This document shows, piece by piece, positions 1 to 64,000 of a DNA stretch of 64,000 nt. The notes beneath the pieces were generated by a model. That model had not been told where the DNA came from and searched no databases. It saw only the letters and a list, made by a program, of their open reading frames with translations. This DNA comes from Eledone cirrhosa (Eukaryota): contig CAXHJY010000107.1 of assembly GCA_964016885.1 (NCBI GenBank), positions 38,208 through 102,207 of the forward strand, given 5' to 3'. The translations under genes were made by a program, and so were the position numbers. Position 1 is the first letter of the stretch. Each line of letters opens with the position of its first letter.

Positions 1-3000
1 GGGGTACCCAAATAAAAAACGGGGCACCCAAATAAAAAACGGACTCCCCCATAAAAAAACGGGGCACCCAAATAAAAAACGGGGCACCCAAATAAAAAAC
101 GGGGTACCCAAATAAAAAACGGGGCACCCAGATAAAAAACGGACCCCCCCCATAAAAAAAACGGGGCACCCAAATAAAAAACTGACCCCCCCCATAAAAA
201 AACGGGGCACCCAAATAAAAAACGGGGTACCCAAATAAAAAACGGGGTACCCAGATAAAAAACGGACCCCCCCATAAAAAACGGGGCACCCAAATAAAAA
301 ACGGGGCACCCAAATATAAAACGGGGCACCCAAATAAAAAACGGGGTACCCAAATAAAAAACGGACCCCCCCATAAAAAAACGGGGCACCCAAATAAAAA
401 ACGGGGTACCCAAATAAAAAACGGACCCCCCCATAAAAAAACGGGGCACCCAAATAAATAACGGGACCCCCCCATAAAAAAACGGGGCACCCAAATAAAA
501 AACGGACCCCCCCCATAAAAAAACGGGGCACCCAAATAAAAAACGGACCCCCCCATAAAAAAACGGGGCACCCAAATAAAAAACGGGGCACCCAAATAAA
601 AAACGGACCCCCCATAAAAAAACGGGGCACCCAAATAAAAAACGGGACCCCCCCCATAAAAAAACGGGACACCCAAATAAAAAACGGGGTACCCAAATAA
701 AAAACGGACCCCCCCATAAAAAAACGGGGTACCCAAATAAAAAACGGGACCCCCCCATAAAAAAACGGGACACCCAAATAAAAAACGGACCCCCCCCATA
801 AAAAAACGGGGCACCCAAATAAAAAACGGGGTACCCAAATAAAAAACGGGGTACCCAGATAAAAAACGGACCCCCCCCATAAAAAAACGGGGCACCCAAA
901 TAAAAAACGGACCCCCCATAAAAAAACGGGGCACCCAAATAAAAAACGGGGTGCCCAAATAAAAAACGGACCCCCCCCATAAAAAAACGGGGCACCCAAA
1001 TAAAAAACGGGACCCCCCCATAAAAAAACGGGGCACCCAAATAAAAAACGGACCCCCCCCCATAAAAAAACGGGGCACCCAAATAAAAAACGGACCCCCC
1101 CCCATAAAAAAACGGGGCACCCAAATAAAAAACGGGACCCCCCCATAAAAAAAAGGGGCACCCAAATAAAAAACGGACCCCCCATAAAAAAACGGGGCAC
1201 CCAAATAAAAAACGGGTACCCAAATAAAAAACGGGGCACCCAAATAAAAAACGGACTCCCCCATAAAAAAACGGGGCACCCAAATAAAAAACGGGGCACC
1301 CAAATAAAAAACGGACCCCCCCCATAAAAAAAACGGGGCACCCAAATAAAAAACGGACCCCCCCCCTAAAAAAACGGGGCACCCAAATATAAAACGGGGT
1401 ACCCAAATAAAAAACGAGGTACCCAGATAAAAAACGGACCCCCCCATAAAAAAACGGGGCACCCAAATAAAAAACGGGGCACCCAAATATAAAACGGGGC
1501 ACCCAAATAAAAAACGGATCCCCCCCATAAAAAAACGGGGCACCCAAATAAAAAACGGGGCACCCAAATAAAAAACGGACCCCCCCATAAAAAAACGGGG
1601 CACCCAAATAAAAAACGGGGTACCCAAATAAAAAACGGACCCCCCCCATAAAAAAACGGGGCACCCAAATAAAAAACGGGACACCCCCATAAAAAAACGG
1701 GGCACCCAAATAAAAAACGGAACCCCCCCATAAAAAAACGGGGCACCCAAATAAAAAACGGACCCCCCCATAAAAAAACGGGGCACCCAAATAAAAAACG
1801 GGGTACCCAAATAAAAAACGGGGCACCCAAATAAAAAACGGGGTACCCAAATAAAAAACGGCCCCCCCCCATAAAAAAACTGGGCACCCAAATAAAAAAC
1901 GGACCCCCCCATAAAAAAACGGGGCACCCAAATAAAAAACGGGGTACCCAAATAAAAAACGGGGCACCCAAATAAAAAACGGACTCCCCCATAAAAAAAC
2001 GGGGCACCCAAATAAAAAACGGGGCACCCAAATAAAAAACGGGGTACCCAAATAAAAAACGGGGCACCCAGATAAAAAACGGACCCCCCCCATAAAAAAA
2101 ACGGGGCACCCAAATAAAAAACTGACCCCCCCCATAAAAAAACGGGGCACCCAAATAAAAAACGGGGTACCCAAATAAAAAACGGGGTACCCAGATAAAA
2201 AACGGACCCCCCCATAAAAAACGGGGCACCCAAATAAAAAACGGGGCACCCAAATATAAAACGGGGCACCCAAATAAAAAACGGATCCCCCCCATAAAAA
2301 AACGGGGCACCCAAATAAAAAACGGGGCACCCTAATAAAAAACGGACCCCCCCCATAAAAAAACGGGGCACCCAAATAAAAAACGGGGTACCCAAATAAA
2401 AAACGGACCCCCCCAGAAAAAAACGGGGCACCCAAATAAAAAACGGGACACCCAAATAAAAAACGGATCCCCCCATAAAAAAACGGGGCACCCAAATAAA
2501 AAACGGGGTACCCAAATAAAAAACGGACCCCCCCATAAAAAAACGGGGCACCCAAATAAAAAACGGGACCCCCCATAAAAAAACGGGTCACCCAAATAAA
2601 AAACGGACCCCCCCATAAAACAACGGGGCACCCAAATAAAAAACGGACCCCCCATAAAAAAACGGGGCACCCAAATAAAAAACGGGGTACCCAAATAAAA
2701 AACGGACCCCCCCATAAAAAAACGGGGCACCCAAATAAAAAACGGGACCCCCCCATAAAAAAACGGGGCACCCAAATAAAAAACGGACCCGCCCCATAAA
2801 AAAACGGGGCACCCAAATAAAAAACGAACCCCCCCATAAAAAAACGGGGCACCCAAATAAAAAACGGGGCACCCAAATAAAAAACGGACCCTCCCATAAA
2901 AAAACGGGGCACCCAAATAAAAAACGGACCCCCCCATAAAAAAACGGGGCACCCAAATAAATACGGGACCCCCCCATAAAAAAACGGGACACCCAAATAA

Positions 3001-6000
3001 AAAACGGGGCACCCAAATAAAAAACGGACCCCCCCATAAAAAAACGGGGCACCCAAATAAAAAACGGGGTACCCAAATAAAAAACGGGGTACCCAGATAA
3101 AAAACGGACCCCCCCATAAAAAAACGGGGCACCCAAATAAAAAACGGACCCCCCCATAAAAAAACGGGGCACCCAAATAAAAAACGGGGTACCCAAATAA
3201 AAAACGGACCCCCCCCATAAAAAAACGGGGCACCCAAATAAAAAACGGGACACCCCCATAAAAAAACGGGGCACCCAAATAAAAAACGGAACCCCCCCAT
3301 AAAAAAACGGGGCACCCAAATAAAAAACGGACCCCCCCATAAAAAAACGGGGCACCCAAATAAAAAACGGGGTACCCAAATAAAAAACGGGGTACCCAAA
3401 TAAAAAACGGACCCCCCCCATAAAAAAACGGGGCACCCAAATAAAAAACGGACCCCCCCATAAAAAAACGGGGCACCCAAATAAAAAACGGGACCCCCCA
3501 TAAAAAAACGGGTCACCCAAATAAAAAACGGACCCCCCCATAAAAAAACGGGGCACCCAAATAAAAAACGGACCCCCCATAAAAAAACGGGGCACCCAAA
3601 TAAAAAACGGGGTACCCAAATAAAAAACGGGGTACCCAGATAAAAAACGGACCCCCCCATAAAAAACGGGGCACCCAAATAAAAAACGGGGCACCCAAAT
3701 ATAAAACGGGGCACCCAAATAAAAAACGGGGTACCCAAATAAAAAACGGACCCCCCCATAAAAAAACGGGGCACCCAAATAAAAAACGGGGTACCCAAAT
3801 AAAAAACGGACCCCCCCATAAAAAAACGGGGCACCCAAATAAATAACGGGACCCCCCCATAAAAAAACGGGGCACCCAAATAAAAAACGGACCCCCCCCA
3901 TAAAAAAACGGGGCACCCAAATAAAAAACGGACCCCCCCATAAAAAAACGGGGCACCCAAATAAAAAACGGGGCACCCAAATAAAAAACGGACCCCCCAT
4001 AAAAAAACGGGGCACCCAAATAAAAAACGGGACCCCCCCCATAAAAAAACGGGACACCCAAATAAAAAACGGGGTACCCAAATAAAAAACGGACCCCCCC
4101 ATAAAAAAACGGGGTACCCAAATAAAAAACGGGACCCCCCCATAAAAAAACGGGACACCCAAATAAAAAACGGACCCCCCCCCATAAAAAAACGGGGCAC
4201 CCAAATAAAAAACGGGGTACCCAAATAAAAAACGGGGTACCCAGATAAAAAACGGACCCCCCCCATAAAAAAACGGGGCACCCAAATAAAAAACGGACCC
4301 CCCATAAAAAAACGGGGCACCCAAATAAAAAACGGGGTGCCCAAATAAAAAACGGACCCCCCCCATAAAAAAACGGGGCACCCAAATAAAAAACGGGACC
4401 CCCCCATAAAAAAACGGGGCACCCAAATAAAAAACGGACCCCCCCCCATAAAAAAACGGGGCACCCAAATAAAAAACGGACCCCCCCCCATAAAAAAACG
4501 GGGCACCCAAATAAAAAACGGGACCCCCCCATAAAAAAAAGGGGCACCCAAATAAAAAACGGACCCCCCATAAAAAAACGGGGCACCCAAATAAAAAACG
4601 GGTACCCAAATAAAAAACGGGGCACCCAAATAAAAAACGGACTCCCCCATAAAAAAACGGGGCACCCAAATAAAAAACGGGGCACCCAAATAAAAAACGG
4701 ACCCCCCCCATAAAAAAAACGGGGCACCCAAATAAAAAACGGACCCCCCCCCCTAAAAAAACGGGGCACCCAAATATAAAACGGGGTACCCAAATAAAAA
4801 ACGAGGTACCCAGATAAAAAACGGACCCCCCCATAAAAAAACGGGGCACCCAAATAAAAAACGGGGCACCCAAATATAAAACGGGGCACCCAAATAAAAA
4901 ACGGATCCCCCCCATAAAAAAACGGGGCACCCAAATAAAAAACGGGGCACCCAAATAAAAAACGGACCCCCCCATAAAAAAACGGGGCACCCAAATAAAA
5001 AACGGGACACCCCCATAAAAAAACGGGGCACCCAAATAAAAAACGGAACCCCCCCATAAAAAAACGGGGCACCCAAATAAAAAACGGACCCCCCCATAAA
5101 AAAACGGGGCACCCAAATAAAAAACGGGGTACCCAAATAAAAAACGGGGCACCCAAATAAAAAACGGGGTACCCAAATAAAAAACGGCCCCCCCCCATAA
5201 AAAAACTGGGCACCCAAATAAAAAACGGACCCCCCCATAAAAAAACGGGGCACCCAAATAAAAAACGGGGTACCCAAATAAAAAACGGGGCACCCAAATA
5301 AAAAACGGACTCCCCCATAAAAAAACGGGGCACCCAAATAAAAAACGGGGCACCCAAATAAAAAACGGGGTACCCAAATAAAAAACGGGGCACCCAGATA
5401 AAAAACGGACCCCCCCCATAAAAAAAACGGGGCACCCAAATAAAAAACTGACCCCCCCCATAAAAAAAACGGGGCACCCAAATAAAAAACGGGGTACCCA
5501 AATAAAAAACGGGGTACCCAGATAAAAAACGGACCCCCCCATAAAAAACGGGGCACCCAAATAAAAAACGGGGCACCCAAATATAAAACGGGGCACCCAA
5601 ATAAAAAACGGATCCCCCCCATAAAAAAACGGGGCACCCAAATAAAAAACGGGGCACCCTAATAAAAAACGGACCCCCCCCATAAAAAAACGGGGCACCC
5701 AAATAAAAAACGGGGTACCCAAATAAAAAACGGACCCCCCCATAAAAAACGGGGCACCCAAATAAAAAACGGGACCCCCCCATAAAAAAACGGGGCACCC
5801 AAATAAAAAACGGACCCCCCCCCATAAAAAAACGGGGCACCCAAATAAAAAACGGACCCCCCCCCCTAAAAAAACGGGGCACCCAAATAAAAAACGGGGC
5901 ACCCAAATAAAAAACGGGACACCCAAATAAAAAACGGACCCCCCCATAAAAAAACGGGACACCCAAATAAAAAACGGGGTACCCAAATAAAAAACGGACC

Positions 6001-9000
6001 CCCCCATAAAAAAACGGGGCACCCAAATAAAAAACGGGACCCCCCATAAAAAAACGGGGCACCCAAATAAAAAACGGACCCCCCCATAAAAAAACGGGGC
6101 ACCCAAATAAAAAACGGACCCCCCCCATAAAAAAACGGGGCACCCAAATAAAAAACGGGGTACCCAAATAAAAAACGGACCCCCCCATAAAAAAACGGGG
6201 CACCCAAATAAATAACGGGACCCCCCCATAAAAAAACGGGGCACCCAAATAAAAAACGGACCCCCCCCATAAAAAAACGGGGCACCCAAATAAAAAACGG
6301 ACCCCCCCATAAAAAAACGGGGCACCCAAATAAAAAACGGGGCACCCAAATAAAAAACGGACCCCCCATAAAAAAACGGGGCACCCAAATAAAAAACGGG
6401 ACCCCCCCCATAAAAAAACGGGACACCCAAATAAAAAACGGGGTACCCAAATAAAAAACGGCCCCCCCCATAAAAAAACGGGGCACCCAAATAAAAAACG
6501 GGGCACCCAAATAAAAAACGGGGCACCCAATTAAAAAACGGACCCCCCCATAAAAAAACGGGGCACCCAAATAAAAAACGGGGTACCCAAATAAAAAACG
6601 AACCCCCCCCATAAAAAAACGGGGCACCCAAATAAAAAACGGGACCCCCCCATAAAAAAACGGGGCACCCAAATAAAAAACGGACCCCCCCCATAAAAAA
6701 ACGGGGCACCCAAATAAAAAACGGGACCCCCCCATAAAAAAACGGGGCACCCAAATAAAAAACGGGACCCCCCATAAAAAAACGGGGCACCCAAATAAAA
6801 AACGACCCCCCCCCATAAAAAAACGGGGCACCCAAATAAAAAACGGGGTACCCCCATAAAAAAACGGGGCACCCAAATAAAAAACGGACCCCCCCATAAA
6901 AAAACGGGGCACCCAAATAAAAAACGGGGTACCCAAATAAAAAACGGACCCCCCCATAAAAAAAACGGGGCACCCAAATAAAAAACGGACCCCCCCCCCA
7001 TAAAAAAACGGGGCACCCAAATAAAAAACGGGGTACCCAGATAAAAAACGGTCCCCCCATAAAAAAACGGGGCACCCAAATAAAAAACGGACCCCCCCAT
7101 AAAAAAACGGGGCACCCAAATAAAAAACGGACCCCCCCCACAAAAAAACGGGGCACCCAAATAAAAAACGGCCCCCCCCATAAAAAAACGGGGCACCCAA
7201 ATAAAAAACGGGGTACCCAAATAAAAAACGGACCCCCCCCCATAAAAAAACGGGGCACCCAAATAAAAAACGGACCCCCCCCATAAAAAAACGGGGCACC
7301 CAAATAAAAAACGGACCCCCCCCATAAAAAAACGGGGCACCCAAATAAAAAACGGACCCCCCCCATAAAAAAACGGGGCACCCAAATAAAAAACGGGGTA
7401 CCCAAATAAAAAACGGACCACCCCCCATAAAAAACGGGGCACCCAAATAAAAAACGGACCCCCCCATAAAAAAACGGGACACCCAAATAAAAAACGGCGT
7501 ACCCAAATAAAAAACGGACCCCCCCCATAAAAAAACGGGGCACCAAAATAAAAAACGGGACCCCCCCAGAAAAAAACGGGGCACCCAAATAAAAAACGGG
7601 ACACCCAAATAAAAAACGGATCCCCCCATAAAAAAACGGGGCACCCAAATAAAAAACGGGGTACCCAAATAAAAAACGGACCCCCCCATAAAAAAACGGG
7701 GCACCCAAATAAAAAACGGGACCCCCCATAAAAAAACGGGTCACCCAAATTAAAAACGGACCCCCCCATAAAACAACGGGGCACCCAAATAAAAAACGGA
7801 CCCCCCATAAAAAAACGGGGCACCCAAATAAAAAACGGGGTACCCAAATAAAAAACGGACCCCCCCATAAAAAAACGGGGCACCCAAATAAAAAACGGGA
7901 CCCCCCCATAAAAAAACGGGGCACCCAAATAAAAAACGGACCCGCCCCATAAAAAAACGGGGCACCCAAATAAAAAACGAACCCCCCCATAAAAAAACGG
8001 GGCACCCAAATAAAAAACGGGGCACCCAAATAAAAAACGGACCCTCCCATAAAAAAACGGGGCACCCAAATAAAAAACGGACCCCCCCATAAAAAAACGG
8101 GGCACCCAAATAAATACGGGACCCCCCCATAAAAAAACGGGACACCCAAATAAAAAACGGGGCACCCAAATAAAAAACGGACCCCCCCATAAAAAAACGG
8201 GGCACCCAAATAAAAAACGGGGTACCCAAATAAAAAACGGGGTACCCAGATAAAAAACGGACCCCCCCATAAAAAAACGGGGCACCCAAATAAAAAACGG
8301 ACCCCCCCATAAAAAAACGGGGCACCCAAATAAAAAACGGGGTACCCAAATAAAAAACGGACCCCCCCCATAAAAAAACGGGGCACCCAAATAAAAAACG
8401 GGACACCCCCATAAAAAAACGGGGCACCCAAATAAAAAACGGAACCCCCCCATAAAAAAACGGGGCACCCAAATAAAAAACGGACCCCCCCATAAAAAAA
8501 CGGGGCACCCAAATAAAAAACGGGGTACCCAAATAAAAAACGGGGTACCCAAATAAAAAACGGACCCCCCCCATAAAAAAACGGGGCACCCAAATAAAAA
8601 ACGGACCCCCCCATAAAAAAACGGGGCACCCAAATAAAAAACGGGACCCCCCATAAAAAAACGGGTCACCCAAATAAAAAACGGACCCCCCCATAAAAAA
8701 ACGGGGCACCCAAATAAAAAACGGACCCCCCATAAAAAAACGGGGCACCCAAATAAAAAACGGGGTACCCAAATAAAAAACGGACCCCCCCATAAAAAAA
8801 CGGGGCACCCAAATAAAAAACGGGACCCCCCCATAAAAAAACGGGGCACCCAAATAAAAAACGGACCCGCCCCATAAAAAAACGGGGCACCCAAATAAAA
8901 AACGAACCCCCCCATAAAAAAACGGGGCACCCAAATAGAAAACGGGGCACCCAAATAAAAAACGGACCCTCCCATAAAAAAACGGGGCACCCAAATAAAA

Positions 9001-12000
9001 AACGGACCCCCCCATAAAAAAACGGGGCACCCAAATAAATACGGGACCCCCCCATAAAAAAACGGGACACCCAAATAAAAAACGGGGCACCCAAATAAAA
9101 AACGGACCCCCCCATAAAAAAACGGGGCACCCAAATAAAAAACGGGGTACCCAAATAAAAAACGGGGTACCCAGATAAAAAACGGACCCCCCCATAAAAA
9201 AACGGGGCACCCAAATAAAAAACGGACCCCCCCATAAAAAAACGGGGCACCCAAATAAAAAACGGGGTACCCAAATAAAAAACGGACCCCCCCCATAAAA
9301 AAACGGGGCACCCAAATAAAAAACGGGACACCCCCATAAAAAAACGGGGCACCCAAATAAAAAACGGAACCCCCCCATAAAAAAACGGGGCACCCAAATA
9401 AAAAACGGACCCCCCCATAAAAAAACGGGGCACCCAAATAAAAAACGGGGTACCCAAATAAAAAACGGGGCACCCAAATAAAAAACGGGGTACCCAAATA
9501 ATGAAACGGCCCCCCCCATAAAAAAACTGGGCACCCAAATAAAAAACGGACCCCCCCATAAAAAAACGGGGCACCCAAATAAAAAACGGGGTACCCAAAT
9601 AAAAAACGGGGCACCCAAATAAAAAACGGACTCCCCCATAAAAAAACGGGGCACCCAAATAAAAAACGGGGCACCCAAATAAAAAACGGGGTACCCAAAT
9701 AAAAAACGGGGCACCCAGATAAAAAACGGACCCCCCCCATAAAAAAAACGGGGCACCCAAATAAAAAACTGACCCCCCCCATAAAAAAACGGGGCACCCA
9801 AATAAAAAACGGGGTACCCAAATAAAAAACGGGGTACCCAGATAAAAAACGGACCCCCCCATAAAAAACGGGGCACCCAAATAAAAAACGGGGCACCCAA
9901 ATATAAAACGGGGCACCCAAATAAAAAACGGGGTACCCAAATAAAAAACGGACCCCCCCATAAAAAAACGGGGCACCCAAATAAAAAACGGGGTACCCAA
10001 ATAAAAAACGGACCCCCCCATAAAAAAACGGGGCACCCAAATAAATAACGGGACCCCCCCATAAAAAAACGGGGCACCCAAATAAAAAACGGACCCCCCC
10101 CATAAAAAAACGGGGCACCCAAATAAAAAACGGACCCCCCCATAAAAAAACGGGGCACCCAAATAAAAAACGGGGCACCCAAATAAAAAACGGACCCCCC
10201 ATAAAAAAACGGGGCACCCAAATAAAAAACGGGACCCCCCCCATAAAAAAACGGGACACCCAAATAAAAAACGGGGTACCCAAATAAAAAACGGACCCCC
10301 CCATAAAAAAAACGGGGTACCCAAATAAAAAACGGGACCCCCCCATAAAAAAACGGGACACCCAAATAAAAAACGGACCCCCCCCATAAAAAAACGGGGC
10401 ACCCAAATAAAAAACGGGGTACCCAAATAAAAAACGGGGTACCCAGATAAAAAACGGACCCCCCCCATAAAAAAACGGGGCACCCAAATAAAAAACGGAC
10501 CCCCCATAAAAAAACGGGGCACCCAAATAAAAAACGGGGTGCCCAAATAAAAAACGGACCCCCCCCATAAAAAAACGGGGCACCCAAATAAAAAACGGGA
10601 CCCCCCCATAAAAAAACGGGGCACCCAAATAAAAAACGGACCCCCCCCCATAAAAAAACGGGGCACCCAAATAAAAAACGGACCCCCCCCCATAAAAAAA
10701 CGGGGCACCCAAATAAAAAACGGGACCCCCCCATAAAAAAAAGGGGCACCCAAATAAAAAACGGACCCCCCATAAAAAAACGGGGCACCCAAATAAAAAA
10801 CGGGTACCCAAATAAAAAACGGGGCACCCAAATAAAAAACGGACTCCCCCATAAAAAAACGGGGCACCCAAATAAAAAACGGGGCACCCAAATAAAAAAC
10901 GGACCCCCCCCATAAAAAAAACGGGGCACCCAAATAAAAAACGGACCCCCCCCCTAAAAAAACGGGGCACCCAAATATAAAACGGGGTACCCAAATAAAA
11001 AACGAGGTACCCAGATAAAAAACGGACCCCCCCATAAAAAAACGGGGCACCCAAATAAAAAACGGGGCACCCAAATATAAAACGGGGCACCCAAATAAAA
11101 AACGGATCCCCCCCATAAAAAAACGGGGCACCCAAATAAAAAACGGGGCACCCAAATAAAAAACGGACCCCCCCATAAAAAAACGGGGCACCCAAATAAA
11201 AAACGGGGTACCCAAATAAAAAACGGACCCCCCCCATAAAAAAACGGGGCACCCAAATAAAAAACGGGACACCCCCATAAAAAAACGGGGCACCCAAATA
11301 AAAAACGGAACCCCCCCATAAAAAAACGGGGCACCCAAATAAAAAACGGACCCCCCCATAAAAAAACGGGGCACCCAAATAAAAAACGGGGTACCCAAAT
11401 AAAAAACGGGGCACCCAAATAAAAAACGGGGTACCCAAATAAAAAACGGCCCCCCCCCATAAAAAAACTGGGCACCCAAATAAAAAACGGACCCCCCCAT
11501 AAAAAAACGGGGCACCCAAATAAAAAACGGGGTACCCAAATAAAAAACGGGGCACCCAAATAAAAAACGGACTCCCCCATAAAAAAACGGGGCACCCAAA
11601 TAAAAAACGGGGCACCCAAATAAAAAACGGGGTACCCAAATAAAAAACGGGGCACCCAGATAAAAAACGGACCCCCCCCATAAAAAAAAACGGGGCACCC
11701 AAATAAAAAACTGACCCCCCCCATAAAAAAACGGGGCACCCAAATAAAAAACGGGGTACCCAAATAAAAAACGGGGTACCCAGATAAAAAACGGACCCCC
11801 CCATAAAAAACGGGGCACCCAAATAAAAAACGGGGCACCCAAATATAAAACGGGGCACCCAAATAAAAAACGGATCCCCCCCATAAAAAAACGGGGCACC
11901 CAAATAAAAAACGGGGCACCCTAATAAAAAACGGACCCCCCCCATAAAAAAACGGGGCACCCAAATAAAAAACGGGGTACCCAAATAAAAAACGGACCCC
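1..12000. repeat. Dispersed kb-scale duplicated blocks within satellite A (offsets ~3386, 5153, 9588, 925 bp)
   Basis: GGTGCCC variant with T at 952, 4338, 10540 and 12977; ACTGGG at ~1881/11469; CCTAAT at 2333/11922; GGGTCACCC near 2585, 3510, 7738 and 8663. Confidence 0.8.
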
Positions 12001-14347
12001 CCCATAAAAAACGGGGCACCCAAATAAAAAACGGACCCCCCCATAAAAAAAACGGGGCCACCCAAATAAAAAACGGACCCCCCCCCCATAAAAAAACGGG
12101 GCACCCAAATAAAAAACGGATCCCCCCCCATAAAAAAAACGGGGCACCCCAAATAAAAAACGGGGCCACCCAAATAAAAAACGGGACACCCAAATAAAAA
12201 ACGGACCCCCCATAAAAAAACGGGACACCCAAATAAAAAACGGGGTACCCAAATAAAAAACGGACCCCCCCATAAAAAAAACGGGGCACCCAAATAAAAA
12301 ACGGGACCCCCCATAAAAAAACGGGGCACCCAAATAAAAAACGGACCCCCCCCATAAAAAAACGGGGCACCCAAATAAAAAACGGACCCCCCCCATAAAA
12401 AAACGGGGCACCCAAATAAAAAACGGGGTACCCAAATAAAAAACGGACCCCCCCATAAAAAAACGGGGCACCCAAATAAATAACGGGACCCCCCCATAAA
12501 AAAACGGGGCACCCAAATAAAAAACGGACCCCCCCCATAAAAAAACGGGGCACCCAAATAAAAAACGGACCCCCCCATAAAAAAACGGGGCACCCAAATA
12601 AAAAACGGGGCACCCAAATAAAAAACGGACCCCCCATAAAAAAACGGGGCACCCAAATAAAAAACGGGACCCCCCCCATAAAAAAACGGGACACCCAAAT
12701 AAAAAACGGGGTACCCAAATAAAAAACGGACCCCCCCATAAAAAAACGGGGTACCCAAATAAAAAACGGGACCCCCCCATAAAAAAACGGGACACCCAAA
12801 TAAAAAACGGACCCCCCCCCCCATAAAAAAACGGGGCACCCAAATAAAAAACAGGGTACCCAAATAAAAAACGGGGTACCCAGATAAAAAACGGACCCCC
12901 CCATAAAAAAACGGGGCACCCAAATAAAAAACGGACCCCCCCATAAAAAAACGGGGCACCCAAATAAAAAACGGGGTGCCCAAATAAAAAACGGACCCCC
13001 CCCATAAAAAAACGGGGCACCCAAATAAAAAACGGGACCCCCCCATAAAAAAACGGGGCACCCAAATAAAAAACGGACCCCCCCCCATAAAAAAACGGGG
13101 CACCCAAATAAAAAACGGACCCCCCCCCCATAAAAAAACGGGGCACCCAAATAAAAAACGGGACCCCCCCATAAAAAAACGGGGCACCCAAATAAAAAAC
13201 GGACCCCCCATAAAAAAACGGGGCACCCAAATAAAAAACGGGTACCCAAATAAAAAACGGGGCACCCAAATAAAAAACGGACTCCCCCATAAAAAAACGG
13301 GGCACCCAAATAAAAAACGGGGCACCCAAATAAAAAACGGACCCCCCCATAAAAAAAACGGGGCACCCAAATAAAAAACGGACCCCCCCCCTAAAAAAAC
13401 GGGGCACCCAAATATAAAACGGGGTACCCAAATAAAAAACGGGGTACCCAGATAAAAAACGGACCCCCCCATAAAAAAACGGGGCACCCAAATAAAAAAC
13501 GGGGCACCCAAATATAAAACGGGGCACCCAAATAAAAAACGGATCCCCCCCATAAAAAAACGGGGCACCCAAATAAAAAACGGGGCACCCAAATAAAAAA
13601 CGGACCCCCCCATAAAAAAACGGGGCACCCAAATAAAAAACGGGGTACCCAAATAAAAAACGGACCCCCCCCATAAAAAAACGGGGCACCCAAATAAAAA
13701 ACGGGACCCCCCCATAAAAAAACGGGGCACCCAAATAAAAAACGGACCCCCCCATAAAAAAACGGGGCACCCAAATAAAAAACGGACCCCCCCCCCATAA
13801 AAAAACGGGGCACCCAAATAAAAAACGGGGTACCCAAATAAAAAACGGACCCCCCCCATAAAAAAACGGGGCACCCAAATAAAAAACGGGACCCCCCCCC
13901 ATAAAAAAACGGGGCACCCAAATAAAAAACGGACCCCCCCCATAAAAAAACGGGGCACCCAAATAAAAAACGGACCCCCCCCATAAAAAAACGGGCCACC
14001 CAAATAAAAAACGGGGTACCCAAATAAAAAACGGACCCCCCCCCCATAAAAAACGGGGCACCCAAATAAAAAACGGACCCCCCCATAAAAAAACGGGACA
14101 CCCAAATAAAAAACGGGGCACCCAAATAAAAAACGGATCCCCCCATAAAAAAACGGGGCACCCAAATAAAAAACGGGGTACCCAAATAAAAAACGGACCC
14201 CCCCATAAAAAAACGGGGCACCCAAATAAAAAACGGACCCCCCCCATAAAAAAACGGGGCACCCAAATAAAAAACGGACCCCCCCATAAAAAACCGGGGC
14301 ACCCAAATAAAAAACGGGGTACCCAAATAAAAAACGGACCCCCCCCA

Positions 14348-14355
14348 TAAAAAAA
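14348..14355 (+). other. Left A/B junction; TAAAAAAA, first copy of a possible target-site duplication or microhomology
   Basis: Reads CCCCCCA-TAAAAAAA-TTATCTCCCC. The A-run is shared by the end of an A Y-monomer and the start of a B monomer (AAATTATC). Confidence 0.7.
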
Positions 14356-17300
14356 TTATCTCCCCTTGGCTGGCTGGAAATTATCTCCCCTTGGACGGCT
14401 GGAAATTATCTCCCCTTGGACGGCTGGAAATTATCTCCCCTTGATTTTTTTACAAATTATCTCCCCCTGATTTTTTTTTTACAAATTATCTCCCCCTGAT
14501 TTTTTTTTACAAATTATCTACCCCTGATTTTTTTTTACAAATTATCTCCCCTTGATTTTTTTTACAAATTATCTCCCCCTGATTTTTTTTTACAAATTAT
14601 CTCCCCCTGATTTTTTTTTACAAATTATCTCCCCCTGATTTTTGTTTACAAATTATCTCCGCCTGATTTTTTTTAAAAAATTATCTCCCCTTGGACGGCT
14701 GGAAATTATCTCCCCTTGATTTTTTTACAAATTATCTCCCCCTGATTTTTTTTTACAAATTATCTCCCCCTGATTTTTTTACAAATTATCTCCCCCTGAT
14801 TTTTTTTACAAATTATCTCCGCCTGATTTTTTTAAATATTATCTCTCCTTGGCTGGCGGGAAATTATCTCCCCTTGGACGGCTGGAAATTATCTCCCCTT
14901 GAAAGGATGGAAATTATCTCCCCTTGGACGGCTGGAAATTATCTACCCCTGATTTTTTTTACAAATTATCTCCCCCTGATTTTTTTACAAATTATCTCCG
15001 CCTGATTTTTTTAAATGTTATCTCTCCTTGGCTGGCGGGAAATTATCTCCCCTTGGACGGCTGGAAATTATCTCCCCTTGGAAGGATGGAAATTATCTCC
15101 CCTTGGACGGCTGAAAATTATCTACCCCTGATTTTTTTTACAAATTATCTCCCCCTGATTTTTTTTACAAATTATCTCCCCCTGATTTTTTTTACAAATT
15201 ATCTACCCCTGATTTTTTTTACAAATTATCTCCCCCTGATTTTTTTTACAAATTATCTCCCCCTGATTTTTTTTACAAATTATCTCCCCCTGATTTTTTT
15301 TTACAAATTATCTCCCCCTGATTTTTTTACAAATTATCTCCCCCTGATTTTTTTTACAATCTCCGCCTGATTTTTTAAAAAATTATCTTCCCTTGGCTGG
15401 CGGGAAATTATCTCCCCTTGGACGGCTGGAAATTATCTCCCCTTGGAAGGATGGAAATTATCTCCCCTTGGACGGCTGGAAATTATCTCCCCTTGCACGG
15501 CTGGAAATTATAGCCCCTTGGAGGGCTGGAAATTATCTCCCCTTGATATTTTTTACAAATTATCTCCCCCTGATTTTTTTTTCAAATTATCTCCCCCTGA
15601 TTTTTTTTACAAATTATCTCCCCCCTGATTTTTTTACAAATTATCTCCCCTTGGCTGGCTGGAAATTATCTCCCCTTGGAGGCTGGAACTTATCTCCCCT
15701 TGGACGGCTAGAAATTACCTCTCCTTGGACGGCTGGAAAATATGTCTCCTTGGACGGCTGGATATTATCTCCCCTTGGACGGTTGGAAATTATCTCCCCT
15801 TGGACGGCTGGAAATTATCTCCCCTTGGATGGCTAGATATTACCTCCCCTTGGACGGCTGGAAATTATCTCCCCTTGATTTTTTTTACAAATTATCTCCC
15901 CCTGATTTTTTTTTACAAATTATCTCCCCCTGATTTTTTTTTAAAAATTATCTCCCCCTGATTTTTGTTTACAAATTATCTCCGCCTGATTTTTTTTTTT
16001 AAATTATCTCCCCTTGGACGGCTGGAAATTATCTCCCCTTGGACGGCTGGAAATTATATCTCCTTGGACGGCTAGAATTTACCTCTCCTTGGACGGCTGA
16101 AAATTATCTCCCCTTGGACGGCTGGAAATTATCTCCCCTTGATTTTTTTTACAAATTATCTCCCCCTGATTTTTTTTTTACAAATTATCTCCCCCTGATT
16201 TTTTTTACAAATTATCTCCCCCTAATTTTTTTTTTACAAATTATCTCCCCCTAATTTTTTTACAAATTATCTCCCCTTGGCTGGCTGGAAATTATCTCCC
16301 CTTGGAGGCTGGAACTTATCTCCCCTTGGACGGCTAGAAATTACGTCTCCTTGGACGGCTGGAAAATATGTCTCCTTGGACGGCTGGATATTATCTCCCC
16401 TTGGACGGCTGGAAATTATCTCCCCTTGGACGGCTGGAAATTATCTCCCCTTGGATGGCTAGATATTACCTCCCCTTGGACGGCTGGAAATTATCTCCCC
16501 TTGATTTTTTTTACAAATTATCTCCCCCTGATTTTTTCTTTACAAATTATCTCCCCCTGATTTTTTTTTACAAATTATCTCCCCCTGATTTTTTTTTACA
16601 AATTATCTCCCCCTGATTTTTGTTTACAAATTATCTCCGCCTGATTTTTTTTAAAAAAATTATCTCCCCTTGGACGGCTGGAAATTATCTCCCCTTGGAC
16701 GGCTAGAAATTACCTCTCCTTGGACGGCTGAAAATTATCTCCCCTTGGACGGCTGGAAATTATCTCCCCTTGATTTTTTTACAAATTATCTCCCCCTGAT
16801 TTTTTTTTTACAAATTATCTCCCCCTGATTTTTTTTTACAAATTATCTACCCCTGATTTTTTTTTACAAATTATCTCCCTCTGATTTTTTTTACAAATTA
16901 TCTCCCCCTGATTTTTTTTTTACAAATTATCTCCCCCTGATTTTTTTACAAATTATCTCCCCCTGATTTTTTTTTACAAATTATCTCCGCCTGATTTTTT
17001 TAAATATTATCTCTCCTTGGCTGGCGGGAAATTATCTCCCCTTGGACGGCTGGAAATTATCTCCCCTTGGAAGGATGGAAAATTATCTCCCCTTGGACGG
17101 CTGGAAATTATCTACCCCTGATTTTTTTTACAAATTATCTCCCCCTGATTTTTTTACAAATTATCTCCCCCTGATTTTTTTAAATGTTATCTCTCCTTGG
17201 CTGGCGGGAAATTATCTCCCCTTGGACGGCTGGAAATTATCTCCCCTTGGAAGGATGGAAATTATCTCCCCTTCGACGGCTGAAAAATTATCTACCCCTG

Positions 17301-60900: not shown

Positions 60901-62297
60901 TATCTCCCCCTGATTTTTTTTACAAATTATCTCCCCCTGATTTTTTTTTACAAATTATCTCCCCCTGATTTTTTTACAAATTATCTCCCCCTGATTTTTT
61001 TTACAAATTATCTCCGCCTGATTTTTTTAAATGTTATCTCTCCTTGGCTGGCGGGAAATTATCTCCCCTTGGACGGCTGGAAATTATCTCCCCTTGGAAG
61101 GATGGAAATTATCTCCCCTTGGACGGCTGAAAATTATCTACCCCTGATTTTTTTTACAAATTATCTCCCCCTGATTTTTTTTACAAATTATCTCCCCCTG
61201 ATTTTTTTTACAAATTATCTACCCCTGATTTTTTCTACAAATTATCTCCCCCTGATTTTTTTTACAAATTATCTCCCCCTGATTTTTTTTTTACAAATTA
61301 TCTCCCCCTGATTTTTTTACAAATTATCTCCCCCTGATTTTTTTTTTACAAATTATCTCCCCCTGATTTTTTTACAAATTATCTCCCCTTGGCTGGCTGG
61401 AAATTATCTCCCCTTGGAGGCTGGAACTTATCTCCCCTTGGACGGCTAGAAATTACCTCTCCTTGGACGGCTGGAAAATATGTCTCCTTGGACGGCTGGA
61501 TATTATCTCCCCTTGGACGGCTGGAAATTATCTCCCCTTGGACGGCTGGAAATTATCTCCCTTTGGATGGCTAGATATTACCTCCCCTTGGACGGCTGGA
61601 AATTATCTCCCCTTGATTTTTTTTACAAATTATCTCCCCCTGATTTTTTTTTACAAATTATCTCCCCCTGATTTTTTTTTACAAATTATCTCCCCCTGAT
61701 TTTTGTTTACAAATTATCTCCGCCTGATTTTTTTTTAAAAATTATCTCCCCTTGGACGGCTGGAAATTATCTCCCCTTGGACGGCTAGAAATTACCTCCT
61801 TGGACGGCTGAAAATTATCTCCCCTTGGACGGCTGGAAATTATCTCCCCTTGATTTTTTTACAAATTATCTCCCCCTGATTTTTTTTTTACAAATTATCT
61901 CCCCCTGATTTTTTTTTACAAATTATCTACCCCTGATTTTTTTTTACAAATCATCTCCCCCTGATTTTTTTTACAAATTATCTCCCCTGATTTTTTTTTA
62001 CAAATTATCTCCCCCTGATTTTTTTACAAATTATCTCCCCCTGATTTTTTTTACAAATTATCTCCGCCTGATTTTTTTAAATATTATCTCTCCTTGGCTG
62101 GCGGGAAATTATCTCCCCTTGGACGGCTGGAAATTATCTCCCCTTGGAAGGATGGAAATTATCTCCCCTTGGACGGCTGGAAATTATCTACCCCTGATTT
62201 TTTTTACAAATTATCTCCCACTGATTTTTTTACAAATTATCTCCCCCTGATTTTTTTTACAAATTATCTCCGCCTGATTTTTTTAAATGTTATCTCA

Positions 62298-62313
62298 ATA
62301 ATTTGTAAAAAAA
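62298..62313 (-). repeat. 16 bp inverted fragment of a satellite B T-type monomer at the right junction
   Basis: ATAATTTGTAAAAAAA is the exact reverse complement of TTTTTTTACAAATTAT (nearest copy 62252-62267). Its last 8 bases double as the satellite A TAAAAAAA preceding CGGGGCACCC. Confidence 0.85.
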
Positions 62314-64000
62314 CGGGGCACCCAAATAAAAAACGGACCCTCCCCATAAAAAAACGGGGCACCCAAATAAAAAACGGGACCCCCCCATAAAAAAACGGGG
62401 CACCCAAATAAAAAACGGACCCCCCCCATAAAAAAACGGGGCACCCAAATAAAAAACGGGGTACCCAAATAAAAAACGGACCCCCCCCATAAAAAAACGG
62501 GGCACCCAAATAAAAAACGGGACCCCCCAATAAAAAAACGGGGCACCCAAATAAAAAACGGACCCTCCCCATAAAAAAACGGGGCACCCAAATAAAAAAC
62601 GGGACCCCCCCATAAAAAAACGGGGCACCCAAATAAAAAACGGACCCCCCCCATAAAAAAACGGGGCACCCAAATAAAAAAACGGGGTACCCAGATAAAA
62701 AACGGACCCCCCCATAAAAAAACGGGGCACCCAAATAAAAAACGGGGCACCCAAATATAAAACGGGGCACCCAAATAAAAAACGGATCCCCCCCATAAAA
62801 AAACGGGGCACCCAAATAAAAAACGGGGCACCCAAATAAAAAACGGACCCCCCCCATAAAAAAACGGGGCACCCAAATAAAAAACGGGATACCCAAATAA
62901 AAAACGGACCCCCCCATAAAAAAACGGGGCACCCAAAAAAAAAACGGACCCCCCCCATAAAAAAACGGGGCACCCAAATAAAAAACGGACCCCCCCCATA
63001 AAAAAACGGGGCACCCAAATAAAATACGGGGTACCCAAATAAAAAACGGCCCCCCCCATAAAAAAACGGGGCACCCAAATAAAAAACGGGACCCCCCCCC
63101 ATAAAAAAACGGGGCACCCAAATAAAAAACGGACCCCCCCATAAAAAAACGGGGCACCCAAATAAAAAACGGACCCCCCCCATAAAAAAACGGGGCACCC
63201 AAATAAAAAACGGGGTACCCAAATAAAAAACGGCCCCCCCATAAAAAAACGGGGCACCCAAATAAAAAACGGACCCCCCCATAAAAAAACGGGGCACCCA
63301 AATAAAAAACGGGGTACCCAAATAAAAAACGGGGCACCCAAATAAAAAACGGACTCCCCCATAAAAAAACGGGGCACCCAAATAAAAAACGGGGCACCCA
63401 AATAAAAAACGGGGTACCCAAATAAAAAACGGGGCACCCAAATAAAAAACGGACCCCCCCCATAAAAAAACGGGGCACCCAAATAAAAAACGGACCCCCC
63501 CCCATAAAAAAACGGGGCACCCAAATAAAAAACGGGTTACCCAAATAAAAAACGGGGTACCCAGATAAAAAACGGCCCCCCCCATAAAAAAACGGGGCAC
63601 CCAAATAAAAAACGGGGCACCCAAATATAAAACGGGGCACCCAAATAAAAAACGGATCCCCCCCATAAAAAAACGGGGCACCCAAATAAAAAACGGGGCA
63701 CCCAAATAAAAAACGGACCCCCCCCATAAAAAAACGGGGCACCCAAATAAAAAACGGGGTACCCAAATAAAAAACGGACCCCCCCATAAAAAAACGGGGC
63801 ACCCAAATAAAAAACGGGACCCCCCCATAAAAAAACGGGGCACCCAAATAAAAAACGGACCCCCCCATAAAAAAACGGGGCACCCAAATAAAAAACGGGG
63901 TACCCAAATAAAAAACGGACCCCCCCCATAAAAAAACGGGGCACCCAAATAAAAAACGGGACACCCCCATAAAAAAACGGGGCACCCAAATAAAAAACGG
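62306..64000. repeat. Satellite A tandem array, right arm, same orientation as left arm; runs off the window end
   Basis: Same X/Y monomers and same diagnostic variants as the left arm (GGATCC at 62784, AAATATAAAAC near 62753, CCCAGATAA near 62690, GGACTCCCCC at 63351). Confidence 0.97.

What the first reader, a model, noticed from the sequence alone, without database searches (positions are those of the whole stretch)
62278..62313. Inverted templated fragment at the right junction: fold-back or template-switch scar
Seen: B stops mid-monomer at TTATCTC (62296), followed by one A and then ATAATTTGTAAAAAAA, the only reverse-strand piece of B I found in the window. It is an exact reverse complement of 62252-62267. 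It also forms an imperfect 16 bp stem with 62278-62293 (3 mismatches, CTCA loop). Established: short locally templated inverted insertions that end in microhomology are signatures of polymerase theta-mediated end joining and of MMBIR/FoSTeS. Inference: inverting B's T-tract created the TAAAAAAA needed to anneal to satellite A.
Basis: partly seen in the sequence, partly recalled or inferred. Interest (0 to 1): 0.7.

Follow-up and report, generated by a model that had tools for sequence, protein, structure and literature searches.

The report
Repair scar copied through composite satellite
A nine-letter backwards copy of one repeat sits where two blocks of repetitive DNA meet and recurs identically at ten such borders; it is most likely the scar of a single DNA-break repair that was later copied along with the blocks, an ordinary process seen unusually clearly.

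Summary
The inverted piece is real, but only 62297-62305 (A + ATAATTTG) is foreign; TAAAAAAA is shared by satellite A and reversed B (chance about 1e-4 to 3e-3). It is not single-copy: the junction occurs 10 times (8 on C7, 2 on C134). It is not a recurrent terminus either. All 10 copies share the same B end and a rare A variant (12 of 2,621 other A dimers). All 9 opposite junctions match, and two 2,766-bp A spacers are identical. So one event was amplified into an alternating A/B macro-array of at least 340 kb. Two unrelated B-to-A junctions (C3, C5) lack the scar. Likeliest origin: hairpin-primed templated insertion of the polymerase-theta type. Size, AT content, template distance and 8-nt resolving homology fit, but there is no primer homology and 822 identical templates lie in the window. 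Rivals: priming from the A end on another B copy, or retroelement twin priming. Raw-read support is thin (one read, A side only). The scan noted a similar founder-junction reading for another satellite of this genome (e1-9589259). Low interest.

The parts
1..14355 (+). Satellite A (20/21-bp monomers), left block; ends in TAAAAAAA at 14348-14355
14353..14355 (+). Left (A-to-B) junction: AAA shared by A and the B monomer start; 9 exact copies of this junction in the genome
14356..62296 (+). Satellite B block (25-27-bp monomers of a T-run type and a GGACGGCTGG type, in higher-order repeats), 47.9 kb, one orientation
62252..62267 (+). Nearest exact template of the inverted piece (penultimate monomer, 31 nt from the junction); one of 822 identical 16-mers in the window
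62278..62296 (+). Terminal truncated B monomer of a common variant; normally continues TCCTTGGCTGGCGGG
62297..62305 (-). Filler: one A with no local template plus ATAATTTG, a reversed piece of B
62306..62313 (.). TAAAAAAA: 8-nt homology shared by reversed B and forward A
62306..64000 (+). Satellite A, right block, running to the end of contig C134
62335..62345 (+). Rare A variant GGACCCTCCCC, present downstream of all 10 junction copies; marks their common descent

Best explanation
The junction carries a 9-letter filler, 8 letters of it reversed satellite B, that recurs identically at all 10 B-to-A borders of one alternating A/B array, and it is most likely the scar of one end-joining repair, probably a fold-back of the polymerase-theta type, that was later copied with the blocks. 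Inferred steps: a B end resected to TTATCTC gained an A and folded back with little or no primer pairing onto a T7ACAAATTAT monomer, most simply the penultimate one. About 16 letters were copied, and the new TAAAAAAA annealed to an A end at its A-run. The other B end joined A through AAA. Unequal exchange in A flanks and within B then multiplied the unit and varied block lengths (B 0.9-52 kb). The scar has no shown function.
For: Shown: 10 exact copies, 0 in the reversed control. All 19 A/B transitions in the fetched C7 piece and C134 fall into one B-to-A and one A-to-B junction type. The B-side 24-mer and the head-to-head B pattern occur only at these 10 places. The rare variant follows 22 of 2,631 A dimers, 10 of them at junctions. 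Two neighbouring 2,766-bp A spacers are identical, and 9 of 10 copies differ by 0-8 edits over 500 homopolymer-compressed B-side letters. The penultimate monomer has T7, equal to the A7 after the filler, in 8 of 10 copies. Literature (PMC7165422, passages): templated insertions are 3-30 bp, first tracts are rarely over 10 bp and AT-rich, only 25% start at 2 bp or more of homology, inverted ones are read as hairpin-primed, and distal templates are under 0.1% of repair.
Against: Primer match is 0 at all three exact templates within 130 nt, so the snap-back primer repeat of SD-MMEJ is absent. The longer homology (8 nt) lies on the A side, which would also fit priming from A. The template is not identifiable (822 copies). 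An older B array on C5 holds 12 copies of a 22-nt reversed match that includes the 'untemplated' A. The two C134 copies have T8, not T7. No listed read or contig spans both sides of the filler. No enzyme can be named from sequence; yeast makes such fold-backs with polymerase delta and NHEJ. The 0.1% distal figure comes from repair of single breaks, not from captures of one satellite into another.
Confidence: 0.58

Rival explanations
1. One event, later amplified, but primed from the A side in trans. The T-run 3' end of a broken A array annealed to another B copy, copied 8-9 letters, let go, and was joined bluntly to a B end (MMBIR/FoSTeS-like template switch). The template could be any modern B monomer, or the older C5-type variant.
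For: Homology is 8 nt on the A side and 0 on the B side. In yeast fold-backs the primed side has the longer homology and the captured side 0-5 bp. With the C5 variant the homology grows to 13 nt and the extra A is templated: 12 copies among 963 cores.
Against: Distal templates are rare in polymerase-theta data. The C5 array has 120 flank combinations and resembles reversed A by low complexity, so a match there is weakly informative. No longer reversed-B-to-A parent junction was found. B is of the modern type up to the cut, unlike C5.
Confidence: 0.2
2. Twin priming by a retroelement reverse transcriptase. A transcript of B's purine-rich strand was primed at an internal A-run by the T7 end of a nicked A site (short arm, 8 nt) and again by the other A end (long inverted arm), leaving (T)AAAAAAA on both sides.
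For: Both A ends continue into the same strand of B. TAAAAAAA flanks the B block on both sides in register; only 7.5% of AAA-ending positions in A are ends of this run. The site reads TTTTTTT/A, like the L1 nick motif, and twin-primed inserts with very short non-inverted arms are described (PMC2837659, passages). In-array copies of the first two B monomers are preceded by T7ACAAA in 52 of 53 cases, so both arms could start at one donor site. An unchecked scan note reports a Penelope-type inverted insertion carrying satellite in this genome.
Against: A single blunt break in the A-run gives the same apparent duplication. About half of all B monomers contain this core (4,832 of 9,893). There is no poly(A) tail, no retroelement sequence inside the array and no homology at the inversion point. 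No exact empty site was found.
Confidence: 0.15
3. A recurrent terminus of a mobile or functional B element that inserts into A repeatedly.
For: 10 copies; AAATTAT...ATAATTT forms a 7-bp inverted pair at the block ends; the hairpin is stable.
Against: All copies lie in one array plus one unplaced contig and share rare flanking variants. The B end has no other partner. Independent B-to-A junctions on C3 and C5 lack it.
Confidence: 0.03
4. Assembly or fold-back-read artefact, or chance filler.
For: No listed record bridges both sides, and the tighter lay found nothing in 3 of 4 runs.
Against: 10 copies on two contigs with copy-specific flanking variants. One raw read from another sample joins filler to A at 99% or more. 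Chance is 3e-3 or less.
Confidence: 0.04

Closest known systems
Inverted templated insertions of polymerase-theta-mediated end joining (PMC7165422, passages; snap-back SD-MMEJ, PMC2943611, passages; stem-loop extension, PMC11292364, abstract and outline)
   Same: 8-nt AT-rich reversed copy of flanking DNA, template about 31 nt away, resolved by longer new homology.
   Different: No primer repeat. It joins two different satellites, was inherited and amplified tenfold, and the enzyme is untested.
Rsp-like/1.688 hybrid satellite junctions of the Drosophila simulans clade (PMC7403614, passages)
   Same: One microhomology junction between unrelated satellites shared by many clusters and read as a rare event spread as a higher-order unit.
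   Different: There it spread to many loci along a chromosome and the second junction varies. Here both junctions are fixed, the copies are tandem, blocks are tens of kb, and a reversed filler is present.
Intermingled TmSat1/TmSat2 arrays of Tribolium madens with conserved transition zones (PMC13081366, passages)
   Same: Alternating arrays of two satellites with two conserved junction types on opposite sides, built only from satellite derivatives.
   Different: There thousands of inversion sites give macro-dyads on all chromosomes. Here there is one locus, all blocks have one orientation, and the inversion is 16 nt.
Yeast local fold-back inversions at breaks (PMC11724301, passages)
   Same: Short inverted duplication captured by the second break end.
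   Different: Those start at a 10-bp imperfect inverted homology, absent here, and need polymerase delta and NHEJ.
L1 twin priming with short non-inverted arm (PMC2837659, passages)
   Same: Two arms in opposite orientation between apparent 7-8-nt duplications at a TTTT/A-like site.
   Different: No poly(A), no retroelement sequence, no internal deletion shown; the duplication is ambiguous in a tandem array.

Membership tests
Polymerase-theta inverted templated insertion | Insertion of 3-30 bp with 5 bp or more reverse-complementary to flanking DNA | tested here: met
   9-nt filler, 8 nt templated, nearest exact template 31 nt away
Polymerase-theta inverted templated insertion | Resolution at newly made microhomology with the other end | tested here: met
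   8-nt TAAAAAAA shared by reversed B and A; the direction of synthesis is inferred
Polymerase-theta inverted templated insertion | Template is the local flank rather than a distant copy | tested here: inconclusive
   822 identical templates in the window and a longer match on C5
Polymerase-theta inverted templated insertion | Genetic dependence on POLQ | not testable with these tools
   historical event
Snap-back SD-MMEJ (strict definition) | Inverted primer repeat P1/P2 on the folding side, so that the repeat covers the junction plus one base each side | tested here: not met
   primer match 0 at three exact templates; 62297 is outside the repeat
Twin-primed retroposition | Target-site duplication at a TTTT/A-type nick | tested here: inconclusive
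   (T)AAAAAAA on both sides, but no exact empty site and A is periodic
Twin-primed retroposition | Two arms of one template in opposite orientation | tested here: met
   long forward B arm and 8-nt reversed arm
Twin-primed retroposition | Poly(A) tail or retroelement sequence in the insert | tested here: not met
   only A and B motifs across all 19 transitions; no gaps over 60 nt between motifs in the C7 piece
Twin-primed retroposition | RNA template of the right strand | not testable with these tools
   no run on record as RNA was offered
Mobile element terminus (TIR/foldback type) | Same end in independent insertion sites | tested here: not met
   10 of 10 copies share flanks and a rare variant; no other partner
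Co-amplified composite satellite with conserved junctions | Alternating arrays whose junctions are near-identical | tested here: met

The most novel reading that the evidence does not exclude
A satellite B transcript was pasted into satellite A by twin priming with a retroelement reverse transcriptase, and that single retro-insertion seeded a composite macro-satellite of more than 340 kb. This would be a direct footprint of RNA-mediated movement of a major satellite.
Probability: 0.15. Interest if true: 0.6.

Novelty: new member of a known kind. Interest (0 to 1): 0.24.

Why it matters
It is a clean natural example of how one repair junction between two satellites can be inherited and multiplied into a large alternating array. 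It also cautions that conserved hairpin-forming satellite junctions need not be functional: common descent explains these ten. The two junctions are unique markers for placing contig C134 and for following unequal exchange in populations. If the twin-priming rival were right, it would show a satellite moving through RNA. Both ingredients of the best reading are already in print, so the interest is modest.

Tried and rejected
Longer reversed-B-to-A parent junction: 0 matches; one search found only C5 B variants and the 10 junctions. Exact empty site in A: 0 (one exact spelling only, so weak). Exact empty site in B, testing A inserted into one B monomer or a B circle: 0, and no consistent small offset between start and end contexts in B. 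Both B ends fall in a monomer class making up 717 of 9,893 monomers, so A-into-B is not excluded. TIR-plus-duplication, Helitron and MITE parses (features recalled, not from a call) do not fit the ends. CTCA-loop hairpin as sole template: gives the wrong letters. C5 61-copy hit: a B monomer variant, not a junction. Reads: X1 contigs show word depth 75 at 62298-62301, X4 and X22 show 0 there; the tighter lay gave 1 read in X21 and none in X1, X3, X23. No earlier scan note near this place. Four paper searches showed no report of this junction; none used a species name, so this is no claim of absence from print. No supplements were read.

Full report
Setting. The window is G000:C134:38208-102207, the end of a 102-kb contig made only of two satellites. 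It holds satellite A (20-bp unit) at 1-14355, satellite B (25-27-bp units) to 62296, and A again to the end. B is abundant genome-wide: one variant 24-mer has 16,531 exact copies. Telomere-like repeats lie near the C7 array. An unchecked scan note calls this genome an octopus; I did not test that.

Observation. Parsing against all fetched A and B shows forward B to 62296, forward A from 62306 and reversed B over 62298-62313. So the filler is 9 letters, of which 8 are reversed B, and TAAAAAAA belongs to both sides. A random 8-letter filler would continue some reversed B copy with probability 1.4e-4 to 3e-3. The top strand folds on the penultimate monomer with z -4.2, while the CTCA-loop stem is not significant. 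The 16-mer template has 822 copies in the window.

Copy number. The junction 29-mer has 10 exact copies: 8 on C7 between 29.53 and 29.76 Mb and 2 on C134. The opposite junction has 9. I fetched C7 29.45-30.05 Mb and the rest of C134. The C7 array is a 343-kb piece between two assembly gaps, with 8 B blocks of 868-52,082 bp separated by A spacers of 2.6-11 kb, A at both outer ends, and one orientation throughout. All 19 A/B transitions on C7 and C134 are of these two types.

One origin. All 10 B-to-A copies end in the same B monomer string and are followed by a rare A variant found after 22 of 2,631 A dimers, 10 of them at these junctions. Two neighbouring 2,766-bp spacers are identical, a third differs by 9 edits, and two 2,582-bp spacers differ by 14. 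Over 500 homopolymer-compressed letters of the B side, 9 copies differ by 0-8 edits; the tenth, the 868-bp block, differs by 21-25 because it is internally shortened. The B-side 24-mer has no other partner, and a head-to-head B pattern with up to 30 letters between arms hits only these 10 places. Two unrelated B-to-A junctions exist: on C5 between older diverged arrays, nearly blunt, and on C3 with a short CGG overlap. Neither has a reversed filler. These searches use exact anchors, so other diverged junctions may be missed. The scar is therefore one of at least three independent joins and was amplified recently; unequal exchange as the route is inference.

Reads. Four runs of one organism hold 68-72% of the sampled words and may be the assembly's own source. 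Contigs of X1 give word depth 75 over 62298-62301, X4 and X22 give none, and no listed piece spans the stretch. A tighter lay found one read of 99% or more in X21, another sample and study, covering 62300-62330, and nothing in X1, X3 or X23. That read supports the filler-to-A join only. The case against artefact rests mainly on ten copies with their own flanking variants.

Mechanism. Published polymerase-theta insertions are 3-30 bp, with first tracts rarely over 10 bp and AT-rich. Only a quarter start at 2 bp or more of homology, and inverted ones are read as hairpin-primed (PMC7165422, passages). The enzyme extends stem-loops from two terminal pairs and shifts register (PMC11292364, abstract). 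The filler fits: 8 nt, 7 of them A or T, nearest exact template 31 nt away, T7 matching A7 in the 8 C7 copies, and 8-nt resolving homology. Against it, the primer match is zero, so the strict snap-back definition (PMC2943611, passages) is not met. The terminal monomer alone would give ATAACATT; a 4-nt hairpin followed by a slip to the previous monomer is possible but inferred. Yeast makes similar products with other enzymes (PMC11724301, passages). I put the cis fold-back at 0.58.

Rivals. Priming from A's T-run on another B copy leaves the same letters and puts the long homology on the primed side. A C5 variant even matches 22 letters including the extra A (12 of 963 cores), but that array is diverse and lies on another chromosome; 0.2. 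Twin priming explains why both A ends run into the same B strand, the in-register TAAAAAAA on both sides and the TTTTTTT/A site (PMC2837659, passages). A single break inside the A-run explains them too, and no tail or retroelement sequence is present; 0.15. Element terminus 0.03; artefact or chance 0.04. That it is a real templated junction of single origin, whatever the enzyme, I put above 0.9.

Comparison. Shared junctions between unrelated satellites spreading as higher-order units are described in Drosophila (PMC7403614, passages), and conserved transition zones in intermingled arrays in Tribolium madens (PMC13081366, passages). This locus works like those, with a repair filler preserved at one border. 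A scan note reached a like founder-junction reading for another satellite here; I had stated my reading before seeing it. Verdict: a new member of a known kind, interest 0.24.

Noticed in passing
G000:C5:64,243,330-64,350,000+ (L079-L089): An older, diverged 60-kb B array with only T-run monomers directly abuts a diverged A array; an independent junction without filler.
   Followed up: partly
L105 1120-1520 (G000:C3 about 179,429,180): About 400 bp of a B variant (TTGGCCGGCTGG) joined to diverged A through a CGG overlap. All three independent B-to-A junctions found have the same polarity, which is unexplained.
   Followed up: partly
C5 B array versus satellite A: A common C5 monomer read backwards shares 13 letters (TAAAAAAACGGGG) with A, hinting at kinship of A and reversed B or at low-complexity convergence.
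   Followed up: no
L079 1845-3290, minus strand: A 481-aa open frame ends at the start of the C5 B array. It has a weak RVT_1 hit (E 0.001, below cut-off); its YVDD and YIGE motifs suggest a Penelope-like retroelement fragment (label recalled, not from a call).
   Followed up: partly
G000:C7:29.45-29.52 Mb and 29.86-30.05 Mb: Interstitial TTAGGG-type repeats, then an AT-rich satellite of roughly 277 bp that flanks the A/B piece on both sides across 200-N gaps; the placement of the piece rests on scaffolding.
   Followed up: no
window 14356-14377 and 62278-62296: The first B monomer and the truncated last one both belong to the GGCTGGC class (7% of monomers) and both show TTATCTC at the border; an A-into-B reading is possible, but no empty B site was found.
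   Followed up: partly
C134 versus C7: The two C134 junction copies share variants (T8, CCCTTGG) absent from the eight C7 copies (T7, CCCTCGG), and C134 has a 35-kb spacer that C7 lacks: another haplotype or an unplaced part of the array.
   Followed up: partly
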